Origin: an uncultured Candidatus Saccharibacteria bacterium
Lineage (GTDB): Bacteria > Patescibacteriota > Minisyncoccia > GWC2-36-17
DNA: 32,144 bases
Reading direction: 5' to 3'
Assembly: GCA_964354925.1 (NCBI GenBank)
Contig: CAYHBU010000001.1
Coordinates: forward strand, 1-32,144
Shown here: in pieces, positions 4,662-30,935 of the stretch
Position numbering within the stretch: the stretch's first letter is position 1
How the letters are laid out: the number at the start of each line of letters is the position of its first letter
The notes under the pieces: model-generated
Database searches by the model: none
What the model was told of the DNA's origin: nothing
The model's input: only the letters and a program-made list of their open reading frames with translations
Made by a program: the position numbers and the translations under genes

Positions 4662-5069
4662 ATGACCAACAAACCAATTAAAAAGGCTGGGGCTATAATT
4701 TTAAGTAGCAATGATAAACATAAAATTGCTCTACTTTATCGCGGGAAACATAATGACTGGTCATTTCCAAAAGGTCATATCGAAGACGGAGAGGATTCAA
4801 TAAATGCAATGATAAGAGAAGTAAAAGAAGAAACAGGATTATCAATAAAAATTTTATGTGAGCTACCGGAACAAAATTATCTTCACCCAAGTGGGAATAC
4901 CGTTTCAACAAAAATGTTTCTAGTACAATCCGAAAATGATGATCTTTTAAAATTGGAACATGAAACAGATGATATTAAATGGGTGCCAATAAACGAAGTG
5001 ATCTCGGTCTTGAGTTATAATAATTTAAAGGATTATTTTAAAAAAGTTTACCATATTATTAATAAATAA
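4662..5069 (+). CDS. Nudix hydrolase
   Basis: Nudix box GHIEDGEDSINAMIREVKEETGL (G-x5-E-x7-REUxEExGU). Confidence 0.85.
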   Translation: MTNKPIKKAGAIILSSNDKHKIALLYRGKHNDWSFPKGHIEDGEDSINAMIREVKEETGLSIKILCELPEQNYLHPSGNTVSTKMFLVQSENDDLLKLEHETDDIKWVPINEVISVLSYNNLKDYFKKVYHIINK

Positions 5070-9197: not shown

Positions 9198-9653
9198 ATG
9201 AAAAAATTACGTCTTTTAGCAAGGGTCGTAACCTACGATAAGAATATTAATAAAATCCTTCTTGTAAAAAATAAAGGGATGAGTTTTTGGTACGCTCCTG
9301 GTGGCGGTTGGGAATATGAAAATGAAAATATTTTAGAATGCGCAAAACGAGAAGTTCACGAAGAAACCGGCTTGCATGTGGACATCAAAAAAATGCTTTA
9401 CGTACAAGAATTTCATGATTCAGCTGAATCAATTTTATTTGAAACATTTTGGCTTGCTGAACTTAGCCACGAACAATCTTTAAATGAAAATCATATCGAT
9501 CTCGATCCGAATGGAAATGTTGAAACTGCTCAGTGGTTCAACAAAGAAGAATTGCAAGATCTCAAAGTTTTTCCAAAACGATTAAAAAATACCTTTTGGG
9601 ATAATATCGAATTAGTTATTAATGGAGAAGACCAATTTATTGGCGTAGACTAG
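9198..9653 (+). CDS. Nudix hydrolase (paralog A)
   Basis: Nudix box GGGWEYENENILECAKREVHEETGL. 141/151 aa are identical to ORF 21338-21793 by manual alignment. Confidence 0.85.
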   Translation: MKKLRLLARVVTYDKNINKILLVKNKGMSFWYAPGGGWEYENENILECAKREVHEETGLHVDIKKMLYVQEFHDSAESILFETFWLAELSHEQSLNENHIDLDPNGNVETAQWFNKEELQDLKVFPKRLKNTFWDNIELVINGEDQFIGVD

Positions 9654-11877: not shown

Positions 11878-13214
11878 CTATCCTTTTCTAATCAATTCCA
11901 TAACCTGCGACAAAGACAAACCATCAGAATCCTTGTTATTGCCTACATCTTTCAAGCTCACCTCTTTACCATCTGATGATGGAAAGACGATAAACTTTAT
12001 ATCTTTGCTGATTGCATATTTTATCTGCTCGCTTACCGATTTTTGACCAAGATAGACTTCTACGTCAACACCCTGATCTCTTAAGAAACCGGCTATACTA
12101 AACGAATAATCCGAGCAACCATCCTTAACGGCAACCAAGACTTCTGCGGTAGACTTCTTCCCATCCAAGAGGTTTAGCGCTTGAAGTGCCACTATCAATC
12201 GATCTAATCCGATTGAAGCGCCCACTCCTGGCAATTCTTTGTCGGTATAGAGGCTGGACAGATTATCAAACCGTCCCCCAGAACAAATACTTCCTATCCC
12301 TGGCAGATCATTCAGAATCGTTTCATAGACCGTACCAGTATAATAATCCAGTCCTCTGGCAATAGAAAGATCTATTTTGATATTTTCCTCTGGGATACCA
12401 AGCGACCTGGACTTTCCCAATATTTCTCTCAAGTTTGCTATGCCAATTTCTGCAAGTGGAACACCCGAGAACTCCTTAGCCAACCAATCAAGAACTTCAT
12501 CATTGCTACCATTCAAACCGACAAAGTATATAATCTTATTGATTGCAACCTCATCTTGGCCAATGACAGTCTCCAATTCTCTTTTCACTTCATCGACACC
12601 AACTTTATCTTTCTTATCAATTACTCTAAATATATGCACTGTCTTATCTTCACATTGAGCTGCTTCATCAACCCATTAAGAATCATTCTATTATTGATTC
12701 TTATTGTGAAAGAATCCAAGCCCAATGCCGTCAGTGCAGAAAATATAACCTGGACAACTTCCGCATCAGCAAGATTAGATCTAGTCCCTATCACATCAAA
12801 ATCACATTGATAGAATTCTCTATATCTGCCTCGCTGAGTATTTTCACCTCTCCAAACCGGAGCAATATGGTATCTTTTAAAGGGAAATGAAAGCTCATTG
12901 AAGTGTTGGGCCACAAATCGCGCCAAGGGCACAGTCAAGTCAAACCTAAGCGCAACATCCCTACCTCCATTATCTGTAAATCTGAATAACTGCTTATCAG
13001 TTTCTGTGCCGCCCTTGCCCAATAAAATCTCAGAATATTCAAGCGCTGGCGTATCAATAGGGACATAACCGAAAGATCTATAAACTCTTTCAATAACTTC
13101 CATCATACGCTTCCTGGGAATCATTACTTCTGGCAAAAAATCCCTGAAACCCTTTAATGTTCTTGGCTCGATAATTACCTTCTTTTTTACTTCATTTTGA
13201 TTGTCGTTTCCCAT
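11878..13214 (-). pseudogene. hisS: histidine--tRNA ligase, reading frame broken by a 1-nt deletion
   Basis: N-terminal ORF (12621-13232) has class II motifs (RGFRDFLP-like, FRFDLTVPLAR, YHIAPVWRGENTQRGRYREFYQCDFD). C-terminal ORF (11878-12639) has GLDYYTG, CSGGRFD, GASIGLDRL and an anticodon-binding domain. The frames join if one G is added at about 12651 (AATGTG-GAAGAT gives ..QLNVEDKTVHIF..). The likely start is the ATG at 13214, after GGAGG. Confidence 0.8.
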
Positions 13215-13221
13215 TTTTTTC

Positions 13222-13273
13222 TTGACCTCCACTATTTTATAGTTTATTATACGACGATACTACAAGTTATCAA
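13222..13273. promoter_or_regulatory. overlapping divergent promoters for hisG (+) and hisS (-)
   Basis: Plus strand: TTGACC (13222-13227), 17 nt, TATTAT (13245-13250). Minus strand: TTGATA (13273-13268), 16 nt, TATAAT (13251-13246). The two -10 boxes overlap. Confidence 0.5.
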
Positions 13274-13317: not shown

Positions 13318-14187
13318 ATGAATATCAACAAAAATGACCTAAAAATAGTCATCCCCAATAAAGGGCGTCTATCAATAAAAACCATAGAATTATTGCAAAC
13401 AATAGGTCTTGAATTTGAAACTCAAGAACGCAGTCTTATGTCGCAGGTTAAAAATCTACCAATAACTATACTCTATGTACGCGCCAGCAACATACCTGAA
13501 TACGTGCAAGATGGGATTGCAGATTTGGGGGTTACGGGACTAGATCTTGCGAAAGAACAGGCGGCAAATATAGTAATATTGAAAAAACTTGGATATGGTA
13601 ATGCCGATCTAGTTGTTGCCGTTCCGGAAAAATCTAATATAAAAAAGGTGTCCGATTTAAAAAATAAAAATATTGTCACCTCTTATCCGCATTTAACTAA
13701 AAAATACCTACAATCTAAAAAAATAAAATCAAATGTGATTGAAGTCGATGGTGCCGTTGAGATAACACCATTTCTGGGACTAGCCGATGCCATAACAGAT
13801 CTCACATCAACTGGCACAACACTAAAAACCAACAAATTGATTCCCTTGGATACTATCTTAAAATCTGAGGCTATCTTAATAACAAATAATAAATCTCAAC
13901 AAGAAAAAGGGTCAGAAATTGATTCAATACTCACAAGACTAGATGCCGCCATAACAGCACAGAAGAAAGTATATATAATGATGAATGCTCCAGAAGAAAA
14001 ACTTGAGGAGATTAAAAAAATTACCCCTGGACTAAGCTCGCCAACAATAATGAAACTGGCGAAAGAAGGAATGGTGGCCATACATTCGGTGATTGATAAA
14101 AATGGGTCATGGGAAGTTGTAGAGAAATTAAAAAAAATCGGAGCTTCTGGCATTTTAATAATGCCAATCAATAAAATGCTAATGTAA
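13318..14187 (+). CDS. hisG: ATP phosphoribosyltransferase, long form with C-terminal regulatory domain
   Basis: 289 aa with LKIVIPNKGRL, ASNIPEYVQDGIADLGVTG and DLTSTGTTLK motifs, plus a HisG_C-like tail of about 75 aa. Confidence 0.85.
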   Translation: MNINKNDLKIVIPNKGRLSIKTIELLQTIGLEFETQERSLMSQVKNLPITILYVRASNIPEYVQDGIADLGVTGLDLAKEQAANIVILKKLGYGNADLVVAVPEKSNIKKVSDLKNKNIVTSYPHLTKKYLQSKKIKSNVIEVDGAVEITPFLGLADAITDLTSTGTTLKTNKLIPLDTILKSEAILITNNKSQQEKGSEIDSILTRLDAAITAQKKVYIMMNAPEEKLEEIKKITPGLSSPTIMKLAKEGMVAIHSVIDKNGSWEVVEKLKKIGASGILIMPINKMLM

Positions 14188-18513: not shown

Positions 18514-19953
18514 TCAATCAATTTTTATATTAATAACCGGATCACTATTATTTCTTCTTTTAATAGCCGATTGATGTATTGCAGAAAGAAGATATACGCT
18601 TTTCTGATGACTAATAAAGTCAGAGCGCGAATCATTTCCATTGTTAACAGAATCAATAAAATCATTAATGCAATTAATGCGGGCATCTTCCTGATGACCC
18701 CGTGAATATCCGCCCATAATATTTGTCCAAAGATCTTGAATATTGTATTTTTCGTGTGGGCACCAATCACTAAACATACGAGAATTACGAAATACATGAA
18801 TATCAAAATGATACTCCCCTCCAAAATCATACAAATTACCATCATTTTGCGGATTTATCTCTTCAGACTGGAACGATGCCAACAAAATAGATTGAAATGG
18901 ACCCTGCTCTATAAAATAACTCTCTTGGCGAACTCTTCCATTTCCTTTGTACAAGTCCCTATTTGCTACAGTGGCCCAATTTCTTTGACTAAAACCATTA
19001 TGAATAAGATTTATGCTCCCCAAACATATGATTCGATCACCCCTTTTAAAAACCACATTACTAAAAGCATCAATTTCTCCAAAATCTTTGCAAATATTAT
19101 TAAAGTCATCCTCGCTATATTTATTAAAAACGTCAAAGTCATTAAATAATTTTCTATAATCTCTAAAATTTAACTGAGCTAAAAAATCGCAGGGCCTTAA
19201 AAAGTTAGTAAATACATCTGCATTATCTATTTTTTTATCACCTCTGGATGTTGAATCGATAAACCAATTAACCATATCAAAACTATGATATCCCGAGTGA
19301 CAACATTTGCCATACCCTTGATTGTATGGATGATAGTTTTGATCAATAATTTCGGATGGGAAACGCCACTGTCCATCGCTATGAGATACCTGAATTGATG
19401 TTATCGGACAATTTGTTCGGTTAAACACTTCTTCTATTTTATTTTTTGCAAAGATATACGCAGGATGAAATCTTCTTTGAGACACCACGGAAAATGCTTT
19501 AATTAAACCAGAGTCTTTTTTATTTATGTATATCTTTTTCAACTCTTCGTAATCACGCTGAATCTTTAGAGCCTTTTCAAGATCAGTAGAAATATCTGCT
19601 TCTGCTGTTATCGGCTTATCTATTAAAATATTTAAATTATGTTCAAGACACCATTTCGTATACTTATAATGCATTAATGGCTCAGTAGAAATTATAACGC
19701 TATCGATTTTATGTTCATTTACCATACGAAGAAGCAAATCGTCCAATTCTTTGTTTATAATATCTTGCTGCAAATCGTTAGTAAAAAAAATATCAAGCAT
19801 GTAATCATTTTTTGCCAAATACGATTCTATAATATTTTTTTGCTCAAAAATATCTAAACCACACACTAAACTACAACCCCTAACTCCACGCATAAAATAG
19901 GGAATATAAATCCTTCTAGCATGATATCCCATTCCTATTATCATTATTCTCAT
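18514..19953 (-). CDS. putative NAD(P)-dependent oxidoreductase (Gfo/Idh/MocA-like N-terminus) with a large uncharacterised C-terminal region
   Basis: 479 aa. The N-terminal MRIMIIGMGYHARRIY dinucleotide-fold start and the EPLM segment resemble Gfo/Idh/MocA. I do not recognise the remainder. Its start overlaps the Nudix stop by 4 nt (ATGA). Confidence 0.45.
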   Translation of the reverse strand: MRIMIIGMGYHARRIYIPYFMRGVRGCSLVCGLDIFEQKNIIESYLAKNDYMLDIFFTNDLQQDIINKELDDLLLRMVNEHKIDSVIISTEPLMHYKYTKWCLEHNLNILIDKPITAEADISTDLEKALKIQRDYEELKKIYINKKDSGLIKAFSVVSQRRFHPAYIFAKNKIEEVFNRTNCPITSIQVSHSDGQWRFPSEIIDQNYHPYNQGYGKCCHSGYHSFDMVNWFIDSTSRGDKKIDNADVFTNFLRPCDFLAQLNFRDYRKLFNDFDVFNKYSEDDFNNICKDFGEIDAFSNVVFKRGDRIICLGSINLIHNGFSQRNWATVANRDLYKGNGRVRQESYFIEQGPFQSILLASFQSEEINPQNDGNLYDFGGEYHFDIHVFRNSRMFSDWCPHEKYNIQDLWTNIMGGYSRGHQEDARINCINDFIDSVNNGNDSRSDFISHQKSVYLLSAIHQSAIKRRNNSDPVINIKID

Positions 19954-20393
19954 GGCTCGATAGGAGAAATAAATCGACTCTTAAATTCCATAAAAGCCTT
20001 TTTATTATTATCTTTTTCTAGCGTCTTCTGGGCTTCATCGTAAGAACACCATCTGTAATCGTCGTGCTCATTGCCCAATTCAATATCAATAGTATCGGGC
20101 AATTCAACCCCGAAAACATATTCGCTTATCTGAGTATCTTTATTTTTCACCCATGTAAACTGATAAAACATATCAGTTATGGAGATAATCTGATTCTTAT
20201 TTATATTTATCTCTTCCTCAAACTCCCTATAAATACATTCTGTGAGTGATTCATTTGACTCTAGCGTTCCCGTGATCGGCTGCCAAAATCCTCCGTCTTC
20301 CGGAATCCTTTTTACTAGTAAAAATTTTATTTCGCCGTCTTTCCTACAAAATGGTATCCCTTCAAATTTAATTGGTAATTTAAAAATATTCAT
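19950..20393 (-). CDS. Nudix hydrolase, NudB (dihydroneopterin triphosphate pyrophosphatase)-like
   Basis: FWQPITGTLESNESLTECIYREFEEEINI: a Nudix box with the FWQxxTG signature seen in NudB-type enzymes. Confidence 0.75.
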   Translation of the reverse strand: MNIFKLPIKFEGIPFCRKDGEIKFLLVKRIPEDGGFWQPITGTLESNESLTECIYREFEEEININKNQIISITDMFYQFTWVKNKDTQISEYVFGVELPDTIDIELGNEHDDYRWCSYDEAQKTLEKDNNKKAFMEFKSRFISPIEP

Positions 20394-21337: not shown

Positions 21338-21793
21338 ATGAAAAAATTACGTCTTTTGGCAAGGGTTATAACATACGACAAAAATAACGGTAAAATCCTT
21401 CTCGTAAAAAATAACGGGATGAGTTTTTGGTACGCTCCTGGTGGCGGTTGGGAATATGAAAATGAAAATATTTTAGAATGCGCAAAACGAGAGGTTCACG
21501 AAGAAACTGGTTTACATGTAGATATTAAAAAGATGCTCTACGTACAAGAATTTCATGATTCGGCTGAATCAATTTTATTTGAAACATTTTGGCTTGCCGA
21601 GCCTAGCCATGAACAATCTTTAAATTCAAATCATATTGATCTCGATCCAAATGGAAATGTTGAAACTGCGCAGTGGTTCAACAAAGAAGAATTACAAGAT
21701 CTTAAAGTTTTTCCAAAACGATTAAAAAACACTTTCTGGGATAATATCGAATTAATGATTATCGGAGAGGATACATTTATAGGCGTAAGCTAG
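21338..21793 (+). CDS. Nudix hydrolase (paralog B)
   Basis: Same Nudix box as 9198-9653, with 10 aa differences in 151. Confidence 0.85.
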   Translation: MKKLRLLARVITYDKNNGKILLVKNNGMSFWYAPGGGWEYENENILECAKREVHEETGLHVDIKKMLYVQEFHDSAESILFETFWLAEPSHEQSLNSNHIDLDPNGNVETAQWFNKEELQDLKVFPKRLKNTFWDNIELMIIGEDTFIGVS

Positions 21794-23381: not shown

Positions 23382-25166
23382 ATGAGTAAACAAGCCATAT
23401 CCCGCGAAGCGGTATATCAAGTATTAAAAGATTATATTGAGCAATATAAAAATAATCCACTCCATGCGATTACCGCTTTTTTGATGCCGGCTATCGGATC
23501 AATTTTAATATTTTTCATCCCTCCTCTCATCATTGCAAAGATCGTCAATATATTTGTCGCTCAAAATTACATTTCTCTCGATTTAACTTATAACTACATC
23601 GCTCTTCTTGGCGGATCATGGCTGCTTGGAGAGATACTCTGGCGCATTGGACTGCATTCCATGATTAAAATCGAAACAGACGGCATGAACGATCTGGCCA
23701 AGAAATCTTTTCGCAAGCTCAGCGAACGTGATTTTGATTTCTATACCGATAATTTTGTCGGTTCATTGACCAAAAAAGCGCTGGCTTTCTCGGGAAGATT
23801 TGAAATGTTTACCGATACATTGAATTTTGGCATCATGAATGGAATCATCCCGATGTTGTTTGCGTCAGTTATTCTGTGGTACTACTCTTTTTGGTTCCCT
23901 GTGATTTTAATTACTTGTTTGATAATCGCTGCCGCAATCGCGGTACCCATTATCCGCAACCGCTCAAAATTGGTCGCGCTCAGGCACGAAGCGCATAGCA
24001 AAATGTCGGGTAGATTGTCTGATGCGATAATGAATATGTTTGCCGTCAAATCATTCGCAAAAGAAAAACAAGAGCTCGATATTTATGGGAGACATATTGA
24101 TAACTATACCGCCAAATTTAAAGATGCCGCAAATTACCACAATCTGAAACTTGACGCCGCAATATCTCCGATTTACGTATTGACTAATATAGTCGGATTA
24201 ATTTCCGCTATATTTTTCGCGCAAAGATTTAATTTGCAAGCTGGCACAATAATTGTGGTATTTTCTTATTATGCTCAAGTTACGAGATTTTTTTGGGAGT
24301 TTAATAAAATTTACAGAAATATGGAATCATCCGTCGGAGAAGGAGCAGAATTCGCTCAATTATTTATTGATCCACCATCAGTGCAAGATGCCTCGGATGC
24401 AAAAGAATTAAAAATTATTAATGCCGATATTGAATTCAATAAAATTAATTTCAATTATGGCGAAAATCAATCCAAAGAAGAATATTTTTTTAATGATTTT
24501 AATTTGCACATCAAAAGCAAAGAAAAAATTGGCTTAGTCGGTCCAAGTGGCGGCGGAAAGACAACCGTCACTAAATTAATTTTAAGATTTATAAATCTAC
24601 AATACGGCAATATTACAATTGACGGCCAAGACATCAGCAAGGTTACGCAGAGTTCTCTAAGAAAAAGCATTGCTTATGTACCGCAAGAACCATTGCTTTT
24701 TCATCGTTCCCTATTTGAAAATATCGCTTACGGGAACGAGAAAGCCACGAAAGAAGAAGTTATAAATGCAGCCAAGCTAGCGCATGCTCACGAATTCATA
24801 GATAAATTGCCTCATGGCTACCAAACATTAGTGGGCGAACGAGGGATTAAATTAAGCGGTGGACAAAGACAACGCGTAGCGATAGCTCGCGCCATACTCA
24901 AAAACGCGCCCATTTTAGTTCTGGATGAAGCGACCAGCTCTCTGGACTCGGAATCAGAGAAATATATCCAAGAAGGATTGTGGGAACTGATGAAAGACAA
25001 AACGGCGATAGTCATCGCGCACAGATTGTCAACTATAAAGCACCTGGACAGAATAATCGTATTGGAAAATGGCAATATTAGCCAAGATGGAACACACAAC
25101 GATTTAATCAAACAAAAAGGAATTTACGCAAAATTGTGGAGCCATCAATCGGGAGAATTTCTATAA
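23382..25166 (+). CDS. ABCB-type exporter half-transporter (TMD-NBD)
   Basis: 594 aa with an N-terminal six-helix-type TMD. Walker A GPSGGGKTT, signature LSGGQRQR, Walker B ILVLDEATS. Confidence 0.9.
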   Translation: MSKQAISREAVYQVLKDYIEQYKNNPLHAITAFLMPAIGSILIFFIPPLIIAKIVNIFVAQNYISLDLTYNYIALLGGSWLLGEILWRIGLHSMIKIETDGMNDLAKKSFRKLSERDFDFYTDNFVGSLTKKALAFSGRFEMFTDTLNFGIMNGIIPMLFASVILWYYSFWFPVILITCLIIAAAIAVPIIRNRSKLVALRHEAHSKMSGRLSDAIMNMFAVKSFAKEKQELDIYGRHIDNYTAKFKDAANYHNLKLDAAISPIYVLTNIVGLISAIFFAQRFNLQAGTIIVVFSYYAQVTRFFWEFNKIYRNMESSVGEGAEFAQLFIDPPSVQDASDAKELKIINADIEFNKINFNYGENQSKEEYFFNDFNLHIKSKEKIGLVGPSGGGKTTVTKLILRFINLQYGNITIDGQDISKVTQSSLRKSIAYVPQEPLLFHRSLFENIAYGNEKATKEEVINAAKLAHAHEFIDKLPHGYQTLVGERGIKLSGGQRQRVAIARAILKNAPILVLDEATSSLDSESEKYIQEGLWELMKDKTAIVIAHRLSTIKHLDRIIVLENGNISQDGTHNDLIKQKGIYAKLWSHQSGEFL

Positions 25167-25187: not shown

Positions 25188-25604
25188 TTACACAAATCTT
25201 TTTATGCCATCAGGATAAAAATGGCTTCCTCGCAAGACATCGACACCCTCCCATATCGCATAAGAGCTATCATTATCTAAAATTCGTATCTCTTTTTCAT
25301 TATATAGCGATTCTTTTATTAAATCAGCGCTATAAATCATCACTAATTCGTGTCCGGTATTTCCTTCGTATGTAAATATATTTTCTACAACTCCCAGAGA
25401 TTTTACATTATCTATTTCTGACTCGAATTCCTCCATAAATTCTCTATGTAAAGCCACGACCCCGGTTTCTCCAAACTCAATACCACCACCAGGCAATCGA
25501 TAAAATTTTTCATTCTTTTTACTGTCGAATCCTACTTGAACCAATACTTTATTATCTTTTTTAACAATAGCTAACGCCAACGGCCTAATACGATTATTTT
25601 CCAT
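25188..25604 (-). CDS. Nudix hydrolase
   Basis: Nudix box GGGIEFGETGVVALHREFMEEF. Confidence 0.85.
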   Translation of the reverse strand: MENNRIRPLALAIVKKDNKVLVQVGFDSKKNEKFYRLPGGGIEFGETGVVALHREFMEEFESEIDNVKSLGVVENIFTYEGNTGHELVMIYSADLIKESLYNEKEIRILDNDSSYAIWEGVDVLRGSHFYPDGIKRFV

Positions 25605-25616
25605 AAATTTTATTTA

Positions 25617-26209
25617 TTAAGAATTATTTTTCAAATACTTTGCAAGCCTTTTCCAACTATTGTAATTTATCGGATTAGACCAAAAATTAAAATATTCATC
25701 ATCAGGCCATTCAGACAATGATTTTGAATAACCAGTTGGAATAAAAAGAGAATCTATCCATCCGTAATCTTTTCTGAAAATTGTCTTACTGGACCTCTTT
25801 GCAATACTACCATCAAAATAACATACAAAAGTCTTTGGCTTCTTACCTGACTCACAATAAGCGAGACAGTCACGCCAAACAGCTCGCCCATTCTTTTCAT
25901 TTCTCATTAAACTGAGTAATCCATTCGCTGATAACCATTTATTTATATATTTAATAAATGGCCCCGGGAAACCCTTAAGAGCCTCAATGTAGCAACCGCC
26001 ATCTGATACAACCACAGGTTTTTTCAGTGCATCCGCGGCCCATCTTGCAGAAAACGCGGCGATTTCTTTAACTGATTCACTTTGGATTTCCGGCGTTTCT
26101 ATATTTTTCTGTATCAAATTAAAATCACTATCAACAAAAAATCTTTTAGCGATTTCAAACTTATATTTATTCCCTGTGACAAATGTTATTTCTTTTAATG
26201 TTTTTTCAT
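25617..26209 (-). pseudogene. HAM1/RdgB (ITPase)-like NTP pyrophosphatase with a frame break just after the start codon
   Basis: GFPGPFIKY and an upstream in-frame EITFVTGNKYKFEIA match the ITPase fold. That frame has no ATG/GTG/TTG before the TTG at 26117. The only ATG with a plausible position (26209-26207) is out of frame by one base and is followed by an A6 run (26206-26201); A7 would restore MKKTLKEITFVTGNK. Confidence 0.6.
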
Positions 26210-26229: not shown

Positions 26230-27987
26230 CTACTCACCTATAAATCCATGGCTTTGTTGCTGCCATAATTTATAATAATAACCTTCCTTTTTCAATAAAT
26301 CAGAGTGCGTACCTTCCTCCGCCATTTTACCCTTATCAAAAACTATAATGCGATCCATTTTTTGTATCGTGCTCAAACGATGAGCTATCACAATAGTCGT
26401 GCGTCCTCGCATTAAATCATCAAAAGAATCCTGAATGTATTTTTCAGTTATTGAATCGAGAGAGCTGGTTGCCTCATCAAGTATGAGAATTGGCGTATTT
26501 TTGATCATGGCTCTGGCGATGGCGATCCTTTGTCTTTCCCCACCGGAAAGCTTAATCCCTCTCTCGCCGACATAAGTATTATAACCATGAGGAAATCCCT
26601 GAATGAATTCATGCGAATGAGAGCGTTTAGCCACATTAATCATATCCTCCTCATTCGCATTCGGATTAGAGTACAACATATTCTCTTTTAATGTTCGATG
26701 AAAAAGTATTGGATCCTGCGGCACGTAGGCAATTTGCGAACGCAAGTCATCCTGTCTTAAATTAGCGATATTTTGGCCATCAATCAAAATTTCTCCGCTG
26801 TTTATATCGACAAATCGCAATAAAAGTTTGGTCAGAGTTGTTTTTCCGGAACCAGAATGTCCAACCAATCCTATTTTCTCTCCAGGCGCGATATAAAGCG
26901 ACAAATCGCTAAACACTGGATTACTTTTTTTATAAGCGAAAGAAATGTTATTGATTTTTATTTCCCCTTTTTGTATTCTGCAATCTTCCGGATTTTCAAT
27001 ATCTTTAATCTCAATCGGCTTTTCAAAAATATCCACCATTTCTTGCGCTTCTGCGACAGCGCGCATAACTCTTGTCATATTGCGGCCAATATTCCATACC
27101 ACATCAAATGATGTAAACACATAGATTTGCATTAAAATAATGACTCCCGCCGAAATCGTGCCGTTGATCCAGAGATAAACAGCGACAAACATACTGACAA
27201 ATTCAAAAAAAGCGATGAAATATCCCTGAAACAGAAATTGTAAATTCTGAAAATACCAAGCCTGTCTTCGCCTTTTTTCTTCTATATCAGTCGCCTCGGA
27301 AAAATAAGAAATTTCCCTATCTTGCGAAGAAAACATCTTGACATTTAATATATTCGTGAGAATATCCGCTAAAATGCCCGTAACTTTTGAATTTGCCTCT
27401 GCAGTCAATAAATCTTTTTTAAATTTTTTCTTTACAAAGATAACAATAACTAAAGCATAAATAGCAACCCAAACAAACAAAATCGCGCCCAAAATCCACG
27501 AATAGTAAACTAATACCGCAAAAGCAAAAACAAGGCGCAGGCCGCTCATCCACAAAGCAAATACAATATTATCATGCATCGTTTCAAAAGCGCTTACATA
27601 GCGCCTCATTTTAGCGACCAATGATCCTGAAAAAACACCTGAAAAAAATTCGTATGAATGGCGCTGAAGTCTCGCGAGCGCATCATCAGTAATGTCTTTC
27701 AACGCATGACTTTGAGAATACGCCATGGCATAATCGGCTATTCTATAAAATACATTAGCGACAACTAAAACACCGCCGAGCATTAATACTGTTTTTATGA
27801 GCATCGCTGATACCAATTCCGGCGCCGAAGCATTTGTTATAGTATCAATGATTTTCTTATAAATAAGAGGCACTCCTATACTGCCCGCCGCCACCGCTAA
27901 AGCATAAGAAACAAACACGAGAATCGCGCTTTTTTTATACCTTTTTATATGTGGCCAATAATATTTGAATATTAATTTAATGTTCAT
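26230..27987 (-). CDS. ABCB-type exporter half-transporter (TMD-NBD)
   Basis: 585 aa. Walker A GHSGSGKTT, signature LSGGERQR, Walker B ILILDEATS. Confidence 0.9.
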   Translation of the reverse strand: MNIKLIFKYYWPHIKRYKKSAILVFVSYALAVAAGSIGVPLIYKKIIDTITNASAPELVSAMLIKTVLMLGGVLVVANVFYRIADYAMAYSQSHALKDITDDALARLQRHSYEFFSGVFSGSLVAKMRRYVSAFETMHDNIVFALWMSGLRLVFAFAVLVYYSWILGAILFVWVAIYALVIVIFVKKKFKKDLLTAEANSKVTGILADILTNILNVKMFSSQDREISYFSEATDIEEKRRRQAWYFQNLQFLFQGYFIAFFEFVSMFVAVYLWINGTISAGVIILMQIYVFTSFDVVWNIGRNMTRVMRAVAEAQEMVDIFEKPIEIKDIENPEDCRIQKGEIKINNISFAYKKSNPVFSDLSLYIAPGEKIGLVGHSGSGKTTLTKLLLRFVDINSGEILIDGQNIANLRQDDLRSQIAYVPQDPILFHRTLKENMLYSNPNANEEDMINVAKRSHSHEFIQGFPHGYNTYVGERGIKLSGGERQRIAIARAMIKNTPILILDEATSSLDSITEKYIQDSFDDLMRGRTTIVIAHRLSTIQKMDRIIVFDKGKMAEEGTHSDLLKKEGYYYKLWQQQSHGFIGE

Positions 27988-28134
27988 TTTTTAAACAATT
28001 TTTTATGATTTCGGGATGAAATATTTGCCTGTTATTATAGTAATTAATTATACATATTATAAAACGCTTTACCAGCATGCATTTTATAAACTGCTAAACA
28101 TTCATCTATCTTCAGTGCCCAAATAAAAACGGCA

Positions 28135-28167
28135 ATATTTTTTATCTTGCCGTTTTTTAAATTTTAT
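28135..28167. terminator. terminator hairpin after the mini-ORF
   Basis: AAAAACGGCAA / TTGCCGTTTTT stem with an 11-nt loop, 10 nt beyond the mini-ORF stop (28177). Confidence 0.55.
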
Positions 28168-28176
28168 ATCTTGTCT

Positions 28177-28317
28177 TTAATCATTATCTTCATCAAAACA
28201 AGCACTCCAACCCCTGGATGGCTTTGGCCTTATTTCTTTATTGCATTTTCGGCAAAAATATTTGCCATCATCATACTCAACATTTTCTCCGCAAGCACAA
28301 GTAATATATCCTTTCAT
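28177..28317 (-). CDS. 46-aa zinc-ribbon-like mini-protein (below the ORF-track length cutoff)
   Basis: ATG at 28317 is preceded by TAAGGAGGTCGAGTC (strong SD, 7-nt spacing). Peptide: MKGYITCACGENVEYDDGKYFCRKCNKEIRPKPSRGWSACFDEDND. It has a CxC...CxxC arrangement and an acidic tail. Confidence 0.6.
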   Translation of the reverse strand: MKGYITCACGENVEYDDGKYFCRKCNKEIRPKPSRGWSACFDEDND

Positions 28318-28351
28318 GACTCGACCTCCTTATATTTTTAAAAGAGCAACT

Positions 28352-28650
28352 AAAAAAACCTCTCGTCCTTTTACCCGAATTAAAAAATTCAGACAAAAGG
28401 ACGAGAGGCTTCAAGACACTATCCCGTGGTGCCACCCTTTTTCAGGAAACAAAAAAGCGCTTACGGAAGCGCCAATTAAATTTCCGCTCATCGACTCCAT
28501 CTTTACAGACGACATCGATTACCCCATGATTACGGAGGAAACCGGGCCTTCACTAACGCAAAGACCATCTTTTCGCTATTAAGCGAGTAAATCAGACCCA
28601 ACCCCGGATACATCCGGGATCTGATTTGTAGATTTTGTAATTTTCAAGAA
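28352..28650 (-). promoter_or_regulatory. T-box riboswitch leader (tRNA-sensing transcription attenuator)
   Basis: The minus-strand RNA has AAAAAGGGUGGCACCACGGG (28442-28423), matching the T-box consensus AANNNGGGUGGNACCRCG. An antiterminator can be drawn: A1 AAAAGG/CCUUUU, bulge UGGCACC, A2 ACGGGA/UCUCGU. It competes with a 14-bp terminator (28359-28372 / 28395-28408) followed by U7. A Stem III-like GCGCUU-ccgu-AAGCGC hairpin lies at 28457-28472. AGCGA (28573-28577) and AGUGAAGG (28547-28554) resemble AG-bulge and distal-loop motifs. GAUGAGC (28486-28492) resembles a K-turn. Confidence 0.8.
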
Positions 28651-28659
28651 CATTATAAT

Positions 28660-28687
28660 CTTATATCTTATATCGTTATTTTGTCAA
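28660..28687 (-). promoter_or_regulatory. candidate promoter of the T-box leader
   Basis: Minus strand TTGACA (28687-28682), 16 nt, TATAAG (28665-28660). A TATAAT (28657-28652) lies just downstream as an alternative -10 box. Confidence 0.45.
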
Positions 28688-28702: not shown

Positions 28703-30400
28703 TTACGCTCTCCCCAAAACCCTGACAATAGAACAGTATCTTTTTACTTCTTTAAGAGCCTCTGTCAAATCAGCGCTTTCGGGCAAGCTCTCGACTTCAA
28801 GAAAAAAATAATACCCCCACCCATCGGCATCGGATCTTCTTGAGTAAAGTTTAGATAAGCTCAATCTTTTATTTGCAAAACAATCCAAAATATCACGCAA
28901 CACTCCACAACGGTCATAAACCGCCAAGATAACAATGGTCTTATCAGCCTTCAACACCTTGCTTATGTCAGGCACTTCTTTTTTTGCTAAAACATAAAAT
29001 TGCGTTGTATTTATTTTTTTATCTTCTATATTTTCAACCAATAATTTTAAACCGTATTTTTTGGCAGCTGCACTGCTTGCTATAAATGCCACCTCTTCGT
29101 CCTCTGTAGATAAAATGGCTTTTACGGAGCTCGATTCCGCCTCCAATTTTGCATTGGGGAAATTTTTGCTTAGCCAATTACGAGATTGCGCGATTGGCTG
29201 AGCATGAGATTTTATAACTTTTATCTTTGACAAATCGTTAGTCCTGCCCAATAAACACAAATGAATCGGGAGGTTGTACGATCCCACTATTCTCAATGGA
29301 TATTTGATTAAATTGTCGAGTGTTTCTTGCACCAATCCCTCTGTTGAATTCTCTATCGGCACAACACCAAAATCAGCATCTCGATTGTCTATTATTTCAA
29401 AAACCTTAGCGATTGTCGGAGCTACTATCCAGGAGGAATCCCTTGAAAAAATATTTATTGCTGCTTGATTAGAAAAAGTCCCCTCCGGCCCCAAGTAAGC
29501 AACCTTGCTGCCACTCTTTAAAAAATTTATTTTTCCGGAAAACTTTTTTATCTCAATCGGCTGTTTATCCATTAGAGAAATAATCTCAACGGATTTTGCT
29601 TGGGCAACGGGAATAAAATTCTCCATAAAAGAAGATGCCTCCTTAAAATCTTGAATAAATTTTTTCTTATTCTTCTTTTCAATATAAGAAATAAATTTTT
29701 GGGTTTCTTTTAAGTATTGTCTGGCTATTTTCATAAAAGCAGGATTTTCCATCTCTAGGTCTGCATAAAGCTCCGGGCTTCCTCCTAAAACGCGTCCAAC
29801 CAACATACTTTGAAGCCTAAATACTGGCGTTGAGTAAACATTGGATATATCGAACTTTTGATCCTGTATTGTTTTTGCAAATATTATATTAATAAAATGG
29901 GTCAAAGCCTGCACAACAGCCATTTGACTATCGTGATTTTTGGGATCAGTAAATACTACCCTGGCCCCATTTTCTTCAAAAATCTTTTGTAAAAATCTTA
30001 CCCAACGATTTTCTCTGCCCTGACAGAATACAACAATTTGCGACTTCAAGCTGGGAACCAACGGACCGAATAACGGATGAATACCTAAAACTCCACATCT
30101 ACTTTTAGATTTCATCATTTCTTTCATCGACATTTCCTTTACTGATGTAAAATCACAAAGCAACGCGTCTGGACGCACAAAATCTCGAATTTCTTTTATG
30201 ATTTTTTTGGTCTCAGAAATGGGGACGGAAACGATTATTATATCCGATTTTTCCGTTAATTCTTTTGCTGTTAGCTCAGTTTTTCTGCCCGATATCAAAA
30301 CATTGAACCCCTTATCTTCAAAAAAACCCTTAAACCAATTGCCAAATCTTCCAGTTCCGCCGATTATTCCTATGACCGGTTTTTGATTTTTCATTATCAT
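28703..30400 (-). CDS. bifunctional prephenate dehydrogenase / prephenate dehydratase with C-terminal ACT domain
   Basis: N-terminus: IGIIGGTGRFG Rossmann fold and GIHPLFGP (TyrA). C-terminus: VAYLGPEGTFSNQAA and TTQFYVL (PheA PDT domain), then an ACT-like region (GVLRDIL...YSRRS). Confidence 0.85.
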   Translation of the reverse strand: MIMKNQKPVIGIIGGTGRFGNWFKGFFEDKGFNVLISGRKTELTAKELTEKSDIIIVSVPISETKKIIKEIRDFVRPDALLCDFTSVKEMSMKEMMKSKSRCGVLGIHPLFGPLVPSLKSQIVVFCQGRENRWVRFLQKIFEENGARVVFTDPKNHDSQMAVVQALTHFINIIFAKTIQDQKFDISNVYSTPVFRLQSMLVGRVLGGSPELYADLEMENPAFMKIARQYLKETQKFISYIEKKNKKKFIQDFKEASSFMENFIPVAQAKSVEIISLMDKQPIEIKKFSGKINFLKSGSKVAYLGPEGTFSNQAAINIFSRDSSWIVAPTIAKVFEIIDNRDADFGVVPIENSTEGLVQETLDNLIKYPLRIVGSYNLPIHLCLLGRTNDLSKIKVIKSHAQPIAQSRNWLSKNFPNAKLEAESSSVKAILSTEDEEVAFIASSAAAKKYGLKLLVENIEDKKINTTQFYVLAKKEVPDISKVLKADKTIVILAVYDRCGVLRDILDCFANKRLSLSKLYSRRSDADGWGYYFFLEVESLPESADLTEALKEVKRYCSIVRVLGRA

Positions 30401-30716: not shown

Positions 30717-30935
30717 TCATATCCTACTTAACCATTTATCATATTTTTTAATTTTTCCGCGAACAATCTCAAAATATATTTTTTTAAATTGCGCAGTAAC
30801 CTCGCCTTCTCCCCCATTGCCGATTTTTATTTTATCTATTTGCCCTATGGAGTTTATTTCAACGGCTGTACCAACAAAAAACGCCTCATTAAATTTACCG
30901 TTGAACCAAATATATTTTCCACTGTCCATGGGCAT
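30717..30935 (-). pseudogene. C-terminal remnant of a class IV (branched-chain/D-amino-acid) aminotransferase
   Basis: EAFFVGTAVEINSIGQIDKIKIGNGGEGEVTAQFKKIYFEIVRGKIKKYDKWLSRI aligns with the last ~55 aa of IlvE-type enzymes (E-x-F-x-TGTA-x-E-I-x-P, then IG-x-G, then the C-terminal W-L). No upstream ORF supplies the missing ~230 aa. Confidence 0.55.

What the first reader, a model, noticed from the sequence alone, without database searches (positions are those of the whole stretch)
28177..28687. T-box riboswitch apparently dedicated to a 46-aa zinc-ribbon mini-protein, next to aromatic amino-acid genes
Seen directly: a canonical T-box core (GGGUGGCACCACG) with mutually exclusive antiterminator and terminator folds. 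It is followed by a strong SD and an unannotated 46-aa ORF with a CxC...CxxC pattern, which has its own downstream hairpin (28135-28167). No aaRS, biosynthetic or transporter gene lies between the leader and that hairpin. T-boxes normally control exactly those gene classes. The one well-known exception is B. subtilis rtpA (anti-TRAP), a 53-aa zinc-binding regulator under a tRNA-Trp T-box. Here the bulge reads UGGC, which implies a tRNA with discriminator G73; tRNA-Trp has G73, but so do Asp, Asn, Glu, Gln and Ser. A UGG-A triplet (28497-28499) lies a few nt upstream of a GAUGAGC K-turn-like motif, and the locus abuts aroQ/tyrA-pheA. I could not fold Stem I confidently, so the Trp specifier is only a hypothesis. 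The mini-protein shows no obvious sequence similarity to anti-TRAP, so it could be an analogous, undescribed output of uncharged-tRNA sensing.
Basis: partly seen in the sequence, partly recalled or inferred. Interest (0 to 1): 0.8.

Follow-up and report, generated by a model that had tools for sequence, protein, structure and literature searches.

The report
Tryptophan T-box controlling a zinc-ribbon mini-protein
A divergent tRNA-sensing RNA switch in a candidate-phyla-radiation bacterium appears to turn on one gene when tryptophan-tRNA is uncharged; that gene encodes a conserved 46-residue zinc-binding protein of unknown function, which in a related lineage sits inside the tryptophan operon next to the Trp-tRNA synthetase gene.

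Summary
On the minus strand, 28637..28352 is a T-box leader with a canonical discriminator. The bulge UGGCACC (28434..28428) and antiterminator overlap a 23-bp terminator followed by U7. A Shine-Dalgarno site and a 46-aa Cx1C...CxxC ORF (28317..28177) follow, and the ORF has its own terminator-like hairpin.

Rfam alone would miss the leader: it scores 28.8 bits against a gathering score of 93. Twelve related Patescibacteria loci carry the same leader, and its helices covary strongly. The ORF is a real gene (dN/dS 0.03-0.22; four Cys and a C-terminal GW invariant).

That triplet lies inside a helix and is not conserved. The invariant UGG is at 28600..28598, in a 5-nt bulge of a short hairpin within a three-way junction. 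This replaces the canonical long Stem I.

Trp specificity is supported by four things:
- a 7:5 UGGC/UGGU mix in the T-box bulge;
- G73 tRNA-Trp genes in two related loci;
- a homologous leader in front of trpD-trpE-trpG-miniORF-trpS in locus L020;
- no UGGA bulges, which these lineages use for glyS.

The protein is unrelated to anti-TRAP, and its function is unknown. The adjacency to aromatic amino-acid genes is not conserved.

The parts
28658..28687 (-). Promoter-like site: TTGACA (28687..28682), 18-nt spacer, TAAGAT (28663..28658)
   Evidence: 10 of 12 consensus matches. The closest relative L021 has TTGACA-17-TATGAT at the equivalent position. This is a consensus match only; the transcription start was not mapped.
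28518..28637 (-). Decoding module of the T-box leader: helix P0 enclosing hairpins H1 and H2 (a three-way junction), followed by Stem II and the IIA/B pseudoknot
   Evidence: Alignments A3 and A5. RNAalifold and pair counts. Family model R1 gives one hit per locus, 83-132 bits; L020, which was not used in training, scores 42.9 bits; control loci give no hits.
28567..28633 (-). Helix P0: AUCU 28633..28630 pairs with AGAU 28570..28567, closing the junction that holds H1 and H2
   Evidence: All 4 pairs show changes on both sides (CG to UA in 2-5 of 12 sequences) and 95.8% of cells are paired (helix 1).
28589..28627 (-). H1, the short Stem I analogue. Lower helix 28627..28620 with 28596..28589; upper helix 28619..28613 with 28608..28602; loop UGUA; 3' bulge UUGGG at 28601..28597.
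   Evidence: 6 of 8 lower-helix pairs are compensatory. The upper hairpin varies in length and is mostly GNRA-capped. There are no unpaired bases on the 5' side, no K-turn and no distal T-loop motifs.
28598..28600 (-). Proposed specifier codon UGG (Trp), followed by the purine G at 28597
   Evidence: The bulge reads N-UGG-G in all 12 leaders where H1 is visible: UUGGG in 11 and CUGGG in L015. It is the only conserved single-stranded stretch of more than 2 nt in the junction domain. The assignment is an inference; see the rival explanations.
28573..28586 (-). H2, a small variable hairpin (UCGCU-UAAU-AGCGA)
   Evidence: Compensatory changes are seen (helices 6-7). H2 is absent in L010 and is often GNRA-capped.
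28545..28566 (-). Stem II (GGUCUUUGC-GUUA-GUGAAGGCC)
   Evidence: 9 pairs, 100% of cells paired, 5 with changes on both sides. The apical UGC/GUG pairs are invariant (helix 8). It aligns to Stem II of RF00230.
28522..28544 (-). Stem IIA (CGG 28544..28542 with CCG 28535..28533) and pseudoknot IIB (UCCU 28539..28536 with GGGG 28525..28522). The F-box-like CCUCCGUAA at 28538..28530 is invariant.
   Evidence: helices 9-10. IIA never varies. IIB is 97.9% paired and shows only one-sided changes (U-A to U-G). For the F-box role see PMC7583486.
28487..28519 (-). H5, an extra hairpin (AUCGAU 28519..28514 with GUCGAU 28495..28490, variable upper part), plus the conserved GAUGAG at 28492..28487
Evidence: Compensatory changes G-C to A-U in the lower helix (helix 11). 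The upper part ranges from 4 to about 60 nt between loci.
28445..28485 (-). Stem III
   Evidence: helices 12-14; 72-83% paired with compensatory changes; the alignment in the variable part is imperfect.
28397..28438 (-). Antiterminator with the T-box bulge UGGCACC (28434..28428). UGGC (28434..28431) would pair with the 3' GCCA of an uncharged tRNA.
   Evidence: A1 and A2 are 100% and 94.5% paired, with 4 compensatory pairs (helices 15-16). The variable base is C in 7 loci and U in 5, and never A or G.
28352..28408 (-). Intrinsic terminator: 23-bp stem, UUUU loop, U7 tract at 28358..28352. It excludes the antiterminator.
   Evidence: The basal 16 pairs are 88.6% paired across loci, 7 of them with changes on both sides.
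28325..28330 (-). Shine-Dalgarno AGGAGG, 7 nt before the ATG. It lies downstream of the terminator and is not sequestered.
   Evidence: Read directly from the sequence.
28177..28317 (-). Mini-ORF of 46 aa, MKGYITCACGENVEYDDGKYFCRKCNKEIRPKPSRGWSACFDEDND: a zinc-ribbon core followed by a basic tail ending in GW
   Evidence: Homologues of 39-49 aa. C7, C9, C22, C25 and W37 are invariant. dN/dS is 0.03-0.22. In the AF2 model the ribbon (residues 1-30) has pLDDT about 70-83 and the tail is disordered.
28125..28157 (-). Terminator-like hairpin after the mini-ORF (11-bp stem, 11-nt loop, U-rich tail)
   Evidence: -13 kcal/mol, z = -4.1. L021 and L016 also have hairpin-plus-U-tract structures after their mini-ORFs, with unrelated sequences.

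Best explanation
This is a tRNA-Trp-responsive T-box riboswitch. It acts by transcription attenuation and is dedicated to a single small gene.

Proposed sequence of events:
1. Transcription starts near 28650 from the unit's own promoter.
2. The nascent leader folds into a decoding module in which a short hairpin (H1) inside a three-way junction presents UGG (28600..28598) in a 5-nt bulge. Stem II and the IIA/B pseudoknot follow.
3. When tRNA-Trp (anticodon CCA, discriminator G73) is uncharged, its anticodon pairs with UGG and its free 3' GCCA end pairs with UGGC (28434..28431).
4. This stabilises the antiterminator (28438..28397) against the terminator (28408..28352), and RNA polymerase reads on into the mini-ORF.
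5. Charged tRNA-Trp cannot make the 3'-end contact, so the terminator forms.

The product is a 46-aa zinc-ribbon protein with a conserved basic KPKPxxGW tail, made specifically when Trp charging is low. Its own hairpin ends the transcript, so the unit is monocistronic here.

Shown: the RNA architecture, its conservation and covariation, the alternative folds, the coding status of the ORF, and the linkage to trp genes in a relative.

Inferred: Trp specificity (about 0.85), tRNA binding and antitermination as such, and the role of the protein. My best guess for the protein (about 0.45) is a non-enzymatic accessory or regulator of Trp supply or Trp-tRNA charging that works by binding a partner protein or RNA. 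That would resemble anti-TRAP in logic but not in ancestry.
For: RNA:
- RF00230 is the only Rfam hit in the window.
- The discriminator is canonical and overlaps the terminator.
- The full structure is 91.7% paired against 39-54% in slid controls, with 41 compensatory pairs and 0 of 500 shuffles reaching the observed values.
- The terminator also covaries.
- Family model R1 finds one copy per related locus and none in control loci.

Trp specificity:
- UGG is invariant in the H1 bulge in 12 of 12 leaders.
- The T-box variable base is C in 7 loci and U in 5, both of which pair with G73. TBDB reports that 46% of Trp T-boxes carry U opposite G73 (PMC7778990).
- tRNA-Trp(CCA) genes in L005 and L007 have G73. 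In L005 the gene lies about 350 nt upstream of the leader.
- In the same lineages the glyS T-boxes use UGGA, matching tRNA-Gly U73, so the discriminator rule holds there.
- L020 has a homologous leader (42.9 bits to R1, not in the training set) in front of trpD, trpE, trpG, the mini-ORF and then a TrpRS N-terminus.

Gene:
- About 16 distinct homologues, all 39-49 aa.
- Invariant Cys and Trp residues; dN/dS 0.03-0.22.
- The leader lies directly upstream in 11 distinct loci. In L012 a companion ORF comes first, and in L020 the leader is at the head of the operon.

Monocistronic unit:
- Independent hairpin-plus-U-tract structures follow the ORF in the window, L021 and L016.
- A separate promoter-like site precedes the ABC exporter.
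Against: - The Rfam score is far below the family's gathering threshold (28.8 against 93 bits).
- Stem I lacks the K-turn, the S-turn-bearing specifier loop and the distal tRNA-elbow platform. Reviews regard that platform as generally required in transcriptional T-boxes (PMC7583486).
- The register of the bulge is ambiguous. If the closing U-G pair forms on the 3' side, the canonical rule 'codon + purine + helix' would read UUG/CUG (Leu).
- H1 is cut off by the contig end in L020, so its specifier cannot be read.
- All evidence is comparative. No tRNA-binding, expression or translation data exist.
- The related sequences share ancestry, so the shuffle controls overstate significance.
- The protein carries an invariant Trp, which is odd for a Trp-starvation-induced product.
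- No partner or activity is known for the protein.
Confidence: 0.8

Rival explanations
1. It is a T-box, but it reads a different tRNA. The candidates are Leu (UUG/CUG, if the last bulge G is the conserved purine that follows the codon) or Gly (GGG).
For: The bulge UUGGG also contains UUG and GGG. The single variant, CUGGG in L015, keeps a Leu codon. The canonical rule places the codon so that one purine separates it from the helix, and one of the two possible U-G registers gives UUG. In the glyS leaders of L012 and L016, the specifier GGC/GGA sits in a similar UUGGN context.
Against: - Seven of 12 leaders have UGGC, which cannot pair with the A73 of tRNA-Leu. None has UGGA, which the glyS T-boxes of the same lineages use.
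- The C/U mix is the known Trp signature.
- In L010 and L013 the base before the bulge changes G to A. This keeps a pair with the U on the 5' strand, which supports the register that leaves U-UGG-G unpaired.
- A UUG-to-CUG switch would require a different tRNA-Leu isoacceptor.
- The homologous leader in L020 controls trp biosynthesis genes and trpS.
Confidence: 0.08
2. The gene that is really regulated is the ABC exporter at 27987..26230. It would be reached by read-through of the weak hairpin after the mini-ORF, and the mini-ORF would be incidental.
For: The post-ORF hairpin has a long 11-nt loop and an interrupted U-tract, so termination may be leaky. An ABC exporter of the same type also neighbours the unit in L016, although there it lies upstream.
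Against: - The mini-ORF is conserved under purifying selection, whereas the downstream genes differ in nearly every locus: glycosyltransferase, convergent helicase, unknown genes, and a different gene in the closest relative L021.
- A promoter-like site (TTTATA-18-TATAAT, 28063..28034) precedes the exporter.
- In L016 the exporter is upstream of the leader, so the leader cannot regulate it.
Confidence: 0.06
3. The ORF acts mainly as a regulatory leader peptide. Ribosome stalling at its single invariant Trp codon near the 3' end would modulate downstream events such as the terminator, coupling to companion ORFs or mRNA stability. The folded protein would not be the point.
For: The family has exactly one invariant Trp codon, 2-9 codons from the stop. 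In many loci a companion ORF or a hairpin follows within 10-30 nt.
Against: - Four invariant Cys, a conserved zinc-ribbon core, a conserved KPKP tail and dN/dS of 0.03-0.22 across the whole ORF all indicate selection on a folded protein.
- In the window the Trp codon (28209..28207) is about 50 nt from the hairpin, too far for a stalled ribosome to mask it.
Confidence: 0.04
4. The leader is a decaying, non-functional T-box relic, which would explain the low Rfam score.
For: Its score is 28.8 bits against a gathering score of 93. L011 shows that the discriminator and terminator can be lost while the ORF stays.
Against: Both alternative folds keep strong compensatory covariation across 12 loci that have diverged to 42-78% protein identity. 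The T-box, F-box and bulge sequences are invariant. All T-boxes in these lineages score low, including those in front of glyS at 30-44 bits, so the low score reflects lineage divergence.
Confidence: 0.02

Closest known systems
Bacillus subtilis rtpA (yczA)-ycbK T-box and anti-TRAP
   Same: A tRNA-Trp T-box acting by antitermination drives a protein of about 50 aa that is zinc-binding and non-enzymatic, instead of an aaRS, biosynthetic or transport gene (PMC11255114). The logic is the same: uncharged tRNA-Trp leads to production of a small protein.
   Different: - There is no sequence relationship (hhalign probability 6%; not among PDB profile hits).
- The DnaJ-like CxxCxGxG motif and the C-terminal helix are absent. 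Instead there is a zinc ribbon plus a disordered basic tail ending in GW.
- No TRAP-like gene was found in the window or related loci, and the target is unknown.
- The leader architecture is different.
- The host phylum is Patescibacteria, not Bacillota.
Actinobacterial ileS T-boxes with short or ultrashort Stem I (for example M. tuberculosis and N. farcinica ileS; class II in TBDB)
   Same: Stem I is truncated and lacks the tRNA-elbow platform. Stem II, the IIA/B pseudoknot and an F-box-like sequence are retained and presumably compensate (PMC7583486; PMC11297988).
   Different: - Those act on translation through an SD sequestrator. This one has a 23-bp terminator plus U7 and a free SD.
- Here the specifier hairpin lies in a three-way junction closed by a covarying helix P0, together with a second hairpin H2. 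An extra hairpin H5 lies before Stem III.
- The specifier sits in a one-sided 5-nt bulge.
- The amino acid (Trp rather than Ile) and the phylum differ.
Canonical class I transcriptional Trp T-boxes of Bacillota (RF00230), for example in front of trpS or trp operons
   Same: The T-box sequence, the antiterminator/terminator switch, Stem II, IIA/B and Stem III are shared, as is the mix of UGGC and UGGU opposite G73. The L020 relative controls trp genes and trpS, as those do.
   Different: The long Stem I with K-turn, S-turn specifier loop, AG bulge and distal loop is absent. The leader scores 28.8 bits against a gathering score of 93. The regulated gene is a small protein of unknown function.

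Membership tests
T-box riboswitch (RF00230) | Conserved T-box sequence forming a 7-nt bulge (UGGNACC) between antiterminator helices A1 and A2 | tested here: met
   AGGGUGGCACCACGGG at 28438..28423. A1 and A2 are 100% and 94.5% paired across 11 loci with compensatory changes.
T-box riboswitch (RF00230) | An expression platform that excludes the antiterminator (intrinsic terminator or SD sequestrator) | tested here: met
   The terminator 28408..28359 plus U7 contains the whole 3' half of the antiterminator. Its basal helix is 88.6% paired with 7 compensatory pairs.
T-box riboswitch (RF00230) | A specifier codon displayed in Stem I that matches the amino acid of the regulated pathway | tested here: met
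   UGG is invariant in the H1 bulge (12 of 12 leaders). The bulge variable base is compatible with G73. The homologous leader in L020 heads trpDEG-miniORF-trpS. The register is inferred, not shown.
T-box riboswitch (RF00230) | Canonical long Stem I: basal K-turn, specifier loop with S-turn, AG bulge and distal loop forming the tRNA-elbow platform | tested here: not met
   The Rfam alignment deletes 86 Stem I positions. H1 is a plain hairpin of variable length, mostly GNRA-capped, with a one-sided bulge inside a three-way junction.
T-box riboswitch (RF00230) | Stem II, Stem IIA/B pseudoknot with F-box, and Stem III | tested here: met
   Stem II is 100% paired with 5 compensatory pairs. IIA is invariant. 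IIB is 97.9% paired with one-sided changes only. CCUCCGUAA is invariant. Stem III is 72-83% paired.
T-box riboswitch (RF00230) | Score at or above the Rfam gathering threshold | tested here: not met
   28.8 bits against 93. All T-boxes in these lineages, including the glyS ones, score 28-44 bits.
T-box riboswitch (RF00230) | Binding of uncharged cognate tRNA and tRNA-dependent antitermination | not testable with these tools
   This needs in vitro transcription or binding assays.
Translational (class II) T-box | An SD sequestrator helix in place of a terminator | tested here: not met
   The SD (28330..28325) lies 21 nt downstream of the U-tract and is unpaired in the minimum-free-energy fold.
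Anti-TRAP (RtpA) | Sequence homology to RtpA, including the DnaJ-like CxxCxGxG zinc motif and the C-terminal helix | tested here: not met
   hhalign probability is 6.1%. RtpA chains are in the PDB set but are not among the 63 profile hits at E <= 10. The motif here is Cx(1-2)C...CxxC without GxG.
Anti-TRAP (RtpA) | Expression under a tRNA-Trp T-box | tested here: met
   See the T-box rows above.
Anti-TRAP (RtpA) | A TRAP (MtrB) target encoded in the same genome | tested here: inconclusive
   tblastn with B. subtilis TRAP (sequence recalled from memory, not verified against a database) found nothing in the window or loci. Only 32 kb of this genome is available.
Zinc-ribbon fold | Two Cys knuckles on beta-hairpins that coordinate one zinc | tested here: met
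   Four invariant Cys. The AF2 model has three strands with pLDDT about 70-83 over residues 1-30. Pfam Zn_ribbon_RRN7 scores 18.6 bits, below its cut-off. Foldseek returns only generic zinc ribbons at E >= 0.9. Metal binding itself was not tested.

The most novel reading that the evidence does not exclude
Two linked novelties may be present.

(1) The mini-protein may be a previously unknown effector of tryptophan starvation in Patescibacteria. It would be a second, independently evolved case of uncharged tRNA-Trp leading through a T-box to a small zinc protein, after anti-TRAP. Its target would be different, for example TrpRS, the Trp feedback site of anthranilate synthase, tRNA-Trp or the ribosome, and it would act through its conserved KPKPxxGW tail.

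(2) The leader may define a third structural class of T-box. This class would be transcriptional yet lack a tRNA-elbow platform, and it would decode through a bulge in a three-way junction backed by Stem II and IIA/B. That would contradict the view that terminator-type T-boxes need the long Stem I for fast tRNA capture.
Probability: 0.45. Interest if true: 0.85.

Novelty: new variant of a known kind. Interest (0 to 1): 0.7.

Why it matters
T-boxes almost always control aminoacyl-tRNA synthetases, biosynthetic enzymes or transporters. To my knowledge anti-TRAP is the only well-studied exception.

A second, unrelated small protein that is consistently wired to a Trp T-box suggests that Patescibacteria have an undescribed response to Trp-tRNA shortage. 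In one lineage that protein is embedded between trpG and trpS. These organisms have tiny genomes, are mostly uncultured, and their regulation is poorly known. The family gives a concrete, testable small-protein candidate.

The RNA matters too. It combines a terminator platform with a truncated, branched decoding domain. This tests the idea that transcriptional T-boxes need the Stem I elbow platform for kinetic reasons.

It also shows that standard Rfam thresholds miss T-boxes in this radiation, including the ones in front of glyS. T-box regulons in CPR genomes are therefore probably under-annotated.

Tried and rejected
- The Rfam gathering scan of the window found nothing. Only the permissive local scan found the T-box.
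It is paired in H5 and not conserved.
- A K-turn reading of GAUGAG was rejected. I could draw no complementary C-stem or tandem G-A partner, and the motif lies before Stem III, not at the base of Stem I.
- Word-indexed homology search with the single peptide found nothing. The exhaustive HMMER search was needed.
- Three large hits from that search (P0001, P0004, P0007) are eukaryote-type HYR/C2H2 repeat proteins and are spurious.
- L009 is a zinc-ribbon segment of a larger protein with no T-box, so it is not a family member.
- The genome-contig scan with TyrA-PheA returned only distant Campylobacterota PheA genes and was uninformative.
- An exact look-up of TyrA-PheA was not on record. Cluster look-ups gave no organism names.
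- L001 and L002 are identical copies of the window and carry no comparative information.
- The structure search of the AF2 model and the PDB profile search gave only generic zinc ribbons (uS14 at E = 0.009, Rpo12, eL43), with no functional lead.
- NCBIfam and Pfam have no family for the mini-protein or for either companion ORF.
- No companion ORF, TRAP-like gene or second mini-ORF was found in the window.
- Literature searches for T-boxes in Patescibacteria or CPR returned nothing.
- L020's H1 could not be read because the contig starts inside the leader.
- L022's leader is likewise cut off by the contig start.
Full report
**1. Is it there?**

Yes. Read on the minus strand, the region holds the following, in order:
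- a promoter-like site, TTGACA-18-TAAGAT, at 28687..28658;
- a highly structured leader of about 290 nt (minimum free energy -116 kcal/mol, z = -7.4 against shuffles);
- the T-box sequence AGGGUGGCACCACGGG at 28438..28423;
- an antiterminator whose 3' half (28405..28397) lies inside the 5' arm of a 23-bp terminator (28408..28359), followed by U7;
- AGGAGG (28330..28325), 7 nt before the ATG of a 46-aa ORF (28317..28177);
- a further hairpin with a U-rich tail at 28157..28125.

Rfam at gathering thresholds reports nothing. With permissive settings RF00230 is the top hit locally (28.8 bits, E = 1.7e-4). It is also the only family with E <= 0.1 in the whole window. The score is far below the gathering score of 93, and the alignment deletes 86 positions of Stem I. 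On its own this would be a weak call. The case rests on comparison with related loci.

**2. Relatives**

A word-indexed search with the peptide found nothing. An exhaustive phmmer search of 1.84 billion representatives found five proteins of 40-49 aa with 42-78% identity. A profile search added six more. One of them is annotated as coming from a Patescibacteria MAG.

The neighbouring TyrA-PheA fusion is 75% identical to a Candidatus Vogelbacteria protein. Its other named relatives are Parcubacteria and Patescibacteria. The window is therefore a CPR contig; it is a complete 32,144-bp NCBI record.

DNA was fetched for 13 distinct loci. In every locus with enough upstream sequence, the mini-ORF is preceded by the same kind of leader. 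There are three special cases:
- In L012 another small ORF comes first.
- In L020 the leader sits at the head of an operon.
- In L011 the discriminator and terminator are deleted, while the decoding module and the ORF remain.

**3. The ORF is a gene**

- C7, C9, C22, C25 and W37 are invariant, and a KPKPxxGW tail is conserved.
- Pairwise dN/dS is 0.03-0.22, with synonymous sites near saturation.
- AlphaFold2 with the family alignment gives a three-stranded zinc ribbon for residues 1-30 (pLDDT about 70-83) and a disordered tail.
- Pfam gives only sub-threshold zinc-ribbon matches, and NCBIfam gives none.
- Foldseek and a PDB profile search return only generic zinc ribbons.
- Anti-TRAP is not among those hits, and a direct profile comparison gives 6% probability.
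- The exhaustive search found no fusion of this module to any enzyme. The three large hits are spurious repeat proteins.

**4. RNA architecture**

Twelve leaders were aligned. RNAalifold recovered Stem II, Stem IIA, an extra hairpin (H5) and the terminator. It also found, unexpectedly, a 4-bp helix P0 (window 28633..28630 with 28570..28567) in which all four pairs switch between C-G and U-A.

P0 encloses two hairpins, H1 and H2. The 5' domain is therefore a three-way junction, not a long Stem I.

I wrote out a full structure by hand: P0, H1, H2, Stem II, IIA, pseudoknot IIB, H5, Stem III and antiterminator helices A1/A2. On the alignment it is 91.7% paired, against 39-54% when partners are slid by 1-3 columns. 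It has 41 pairs with changes on both sides, and 0 of 500 shuffles reach the observed values. The terminator's basal 16 pairs are 88.6% paired, 7 of them compensatory. The sequences are related by descent, so these numbers are supportive but are not probabilities.

A covariance model of the decoding module finds one copy per locus at 83-132 bits. It finds none in 146 kb of other sequence, including control loci. It matches the untrained L020 leader at 42.9 bits.

Features retained from canonical T-boxes:
- Stem II;
- the IIA/B pseudoknot with an invariant F-box-like CCUCCGUAA;
- Stem III;
- the discriminator and the terminator.

Features that are missing:
- the K-turn;
- a two-sided specifier loop with S-turn;
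- the AG bulge and distal loop that form the tRNA-elbow platform.

Reviews state that this platform is generally needed in transcriptional T-boxes and dispensable mainly in translational ones (PMC7583486; PMC11297988). The combination seen here is therefore unusual.

**5. Which tRNA?**

The only conserved unpaired stretch in the junction domain is a 5-nt bulge on the 3' side of H1. It reads UUGGG in 11 leaders and CUGGG in L015. UGG (28600..28598) is thus invariant and is followed by a purine.

Independent support for Trp:
- (a) The variable base of the T-box bulge is C in 7 loci and U in 5, and never A or G. Both C and U pair with G73. TBDB reports exactly this mix as peculiar to Trp T-boxes, with 46% U opposite G73 (PMC7778990). 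The window and its closest relative differ at precisely this base (C against U).
- (b) tRNA-Trp(CCA) genes in L005 and L007 have G73. In L005 the gene lies about 350 nt upstream of the leader.
- (c) In L012 and L016 a second T-box with UGGA precedes glyS (NF003211, 604 bits). This matches tRNA-Gly U73, so the discriminator rule applies in these lineages.
- (d) In L020 the homologous leader heads trpD (TIGR01245), trpE (TIGR00564) and trpG (TIGR00566). The mini-ORF follows 3 nt after trpG. Next comes a gene whose first 31 residues match TrpRS, including the HIGH region (E = 3.7e-10).

The main caveats are the ambiguous register of the bulge (UUG/CUG Leu is the alternative reading) and the loss of L020's H1 to the contig edge. 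I put Trp at about 0.85.

**6. What is regulated?**

In the window, L021 and L016, the mini-ORF is followed by its own hairpin plus U-tract, and the three hairpins have unrelated sequences. The ABC exporter downstream in the window has its own promoter-like site.

Downstream genes differ in almost every locus. In the closest relative, L021, both the aro genes upstream and the exporter downstream are replaced by other genes. The aro adjacency is therefore local to this genome, and the exporter is not the conserved target.

Some loci add a second small ORF of one of two unrelated types:
- an 86-aa protein (after the mini-ORF in L005, before it in L012);
- a coiled-coil protein of about 90 aa ending in LECxIxGIC (L007, L014, L015, L019, L022).

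Neither type has a known family, and neither is present in the window.

**7. Mechanism and function**

The switch itself most likely works as any transcriptional T-box does. This is inferred from the anatomy. Stem II and IIA/B presumably compensate for the missing elbow contact.

What the protein does is unknown. The evidence points to a non-enzymatic factor tied to Trp supply or charging:
- it is made when tRNA-Trp is uncharged;
- it is too small to be an enzyme;
- it has a zinc ribbon plus a basic disordered tail with an invariant Trp, a layout typical of protein- or RNA-binding modules;
- in one lineage it is inserted between anthranilate synthase and TrpRS.

No TRAP-like gene was found, so it is like anti-TRAP in logic only.

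**8. Verdict**

This is a genuine finding, and more interesting than an ordinary T-box. It is a new structural variant of the T-box family in an under-studied radiation, dedicated to a new family of small proteins of unknown role. No paper in the searchable library describes T-boxes in Patescibacteria.

Noticed in passing
L020:1-3893: This locus carries an operon of T-box leader, trpD, trpE, trpG, mini-ORF and trpS in a Patescibacteria-type contig. The mini-ORF starts 3 nt after trpG. The contig ends 31 codons into trpS and begins inside the leader.
   Followed up: yes
L012:6504-6688 and L016:5520-5700: A second T-box with bulge UGGA lies upstream of glycine-tRNA ligase. It has no Stem II and scores only 30-44 bits against a gathering score of 93. 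T-boxes in these lineages are generally invisible at Rfam thresholds.
   Followed up: partly
L005:1908-1979 and L007:1498-1571: tRNA-Trp(CCA) genes with G73 lie upstream of the Trp T-box unit. In L005 the gene is only about 350 nt before the leader, separated from it by a terminator and a promoter.
   Followed up: partly
L011:4760-5003: In this locus the decoding module, H5 and Stem III are intact, but the T-box, antiterminator and terminator are deleted. Stem III runs straight into the SD of the mini-ORF, so expression may be constitutive.
   Followed up: partly
L005:2747-3004, L012:4748-5005; L007:5138-5407, L014:1976-2272, L015:3621-3905, L019:2374-2634, L022:285-557: Two unrelated families of small companion ORFs share the operon with the mini-ORF. 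One is an 86-aa protein (64% identical between L005 and L012). The other is a coiled-coil protein of about 90 aa ending in LECxIxGIC. Neither has a Pfam or NCBIfam family, and neither occurs in the window.
   Followed up: partly
window 28703-30400 (-): A TyrA-PheA fusion (prephenate dehydrogenase + prephenate dehydratase + ACT, 565 aa) follows a separate CM_2 chorismate mutase. The fusion is widespread in Patescibacteria and also appears in Aenigmarchaeota MAGs among the hits.
   Followed up: partly
window 11878-13232 (-) and 13318-14187 (+): HisRS-like sequence is split into two overlapping ORFs of 203 and 253 aa. This could be a frameshift, or a HisZ-like pseudogene or paralogue. It lies divergently next to long-form hisG (HisG + HisG_C).
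   Followed up: no
window 4662-5069, 9198-9653, 19950-20393, 21338-21793, 25188-25604: There are five separate NUDIX hydrolase genes within 32 kb. A Ham1-like NTP pyrophosphatase lies at 25617-26117.
   Followed up: no
window 30717-30935 (-): A 72-aa ORF sits directly upstream of chorismate mutase and has no Pfam hit. Its C-terminus resembles the end of class IV aminotransferases, but this is only an impression and was not tested. It may be a gene fragment.
   Followed up: no
window 23382-25166 (+) and 26230-27987 (-); L016:373-2160: ABC exporter half-transporters (ABC_membrane + ABC_tran) are convergent in the window. A homologue (31-34% identity) lies immediately upstream of the T-box unit in L016. 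The position is not consistent between loci, so regulation by the T-box is unlikely.
   Followed up: partly
L012:4395-4450 and L020:~55-75: An insertion of about 20-40 nt occurs in the apical part of Stem II in two leaders. The upper part of H5 is also highly variable, ranging from 4 to about 60 nt between loci.
   Followed up: no
L011:1997-2402: A bacterial class A RNase P RNA (123.5 bits) lies downstream of a class I aaRS gene (Pfam tRNA-synt_1) in a locus that also carries the mini-ORF.
   Followed up: no
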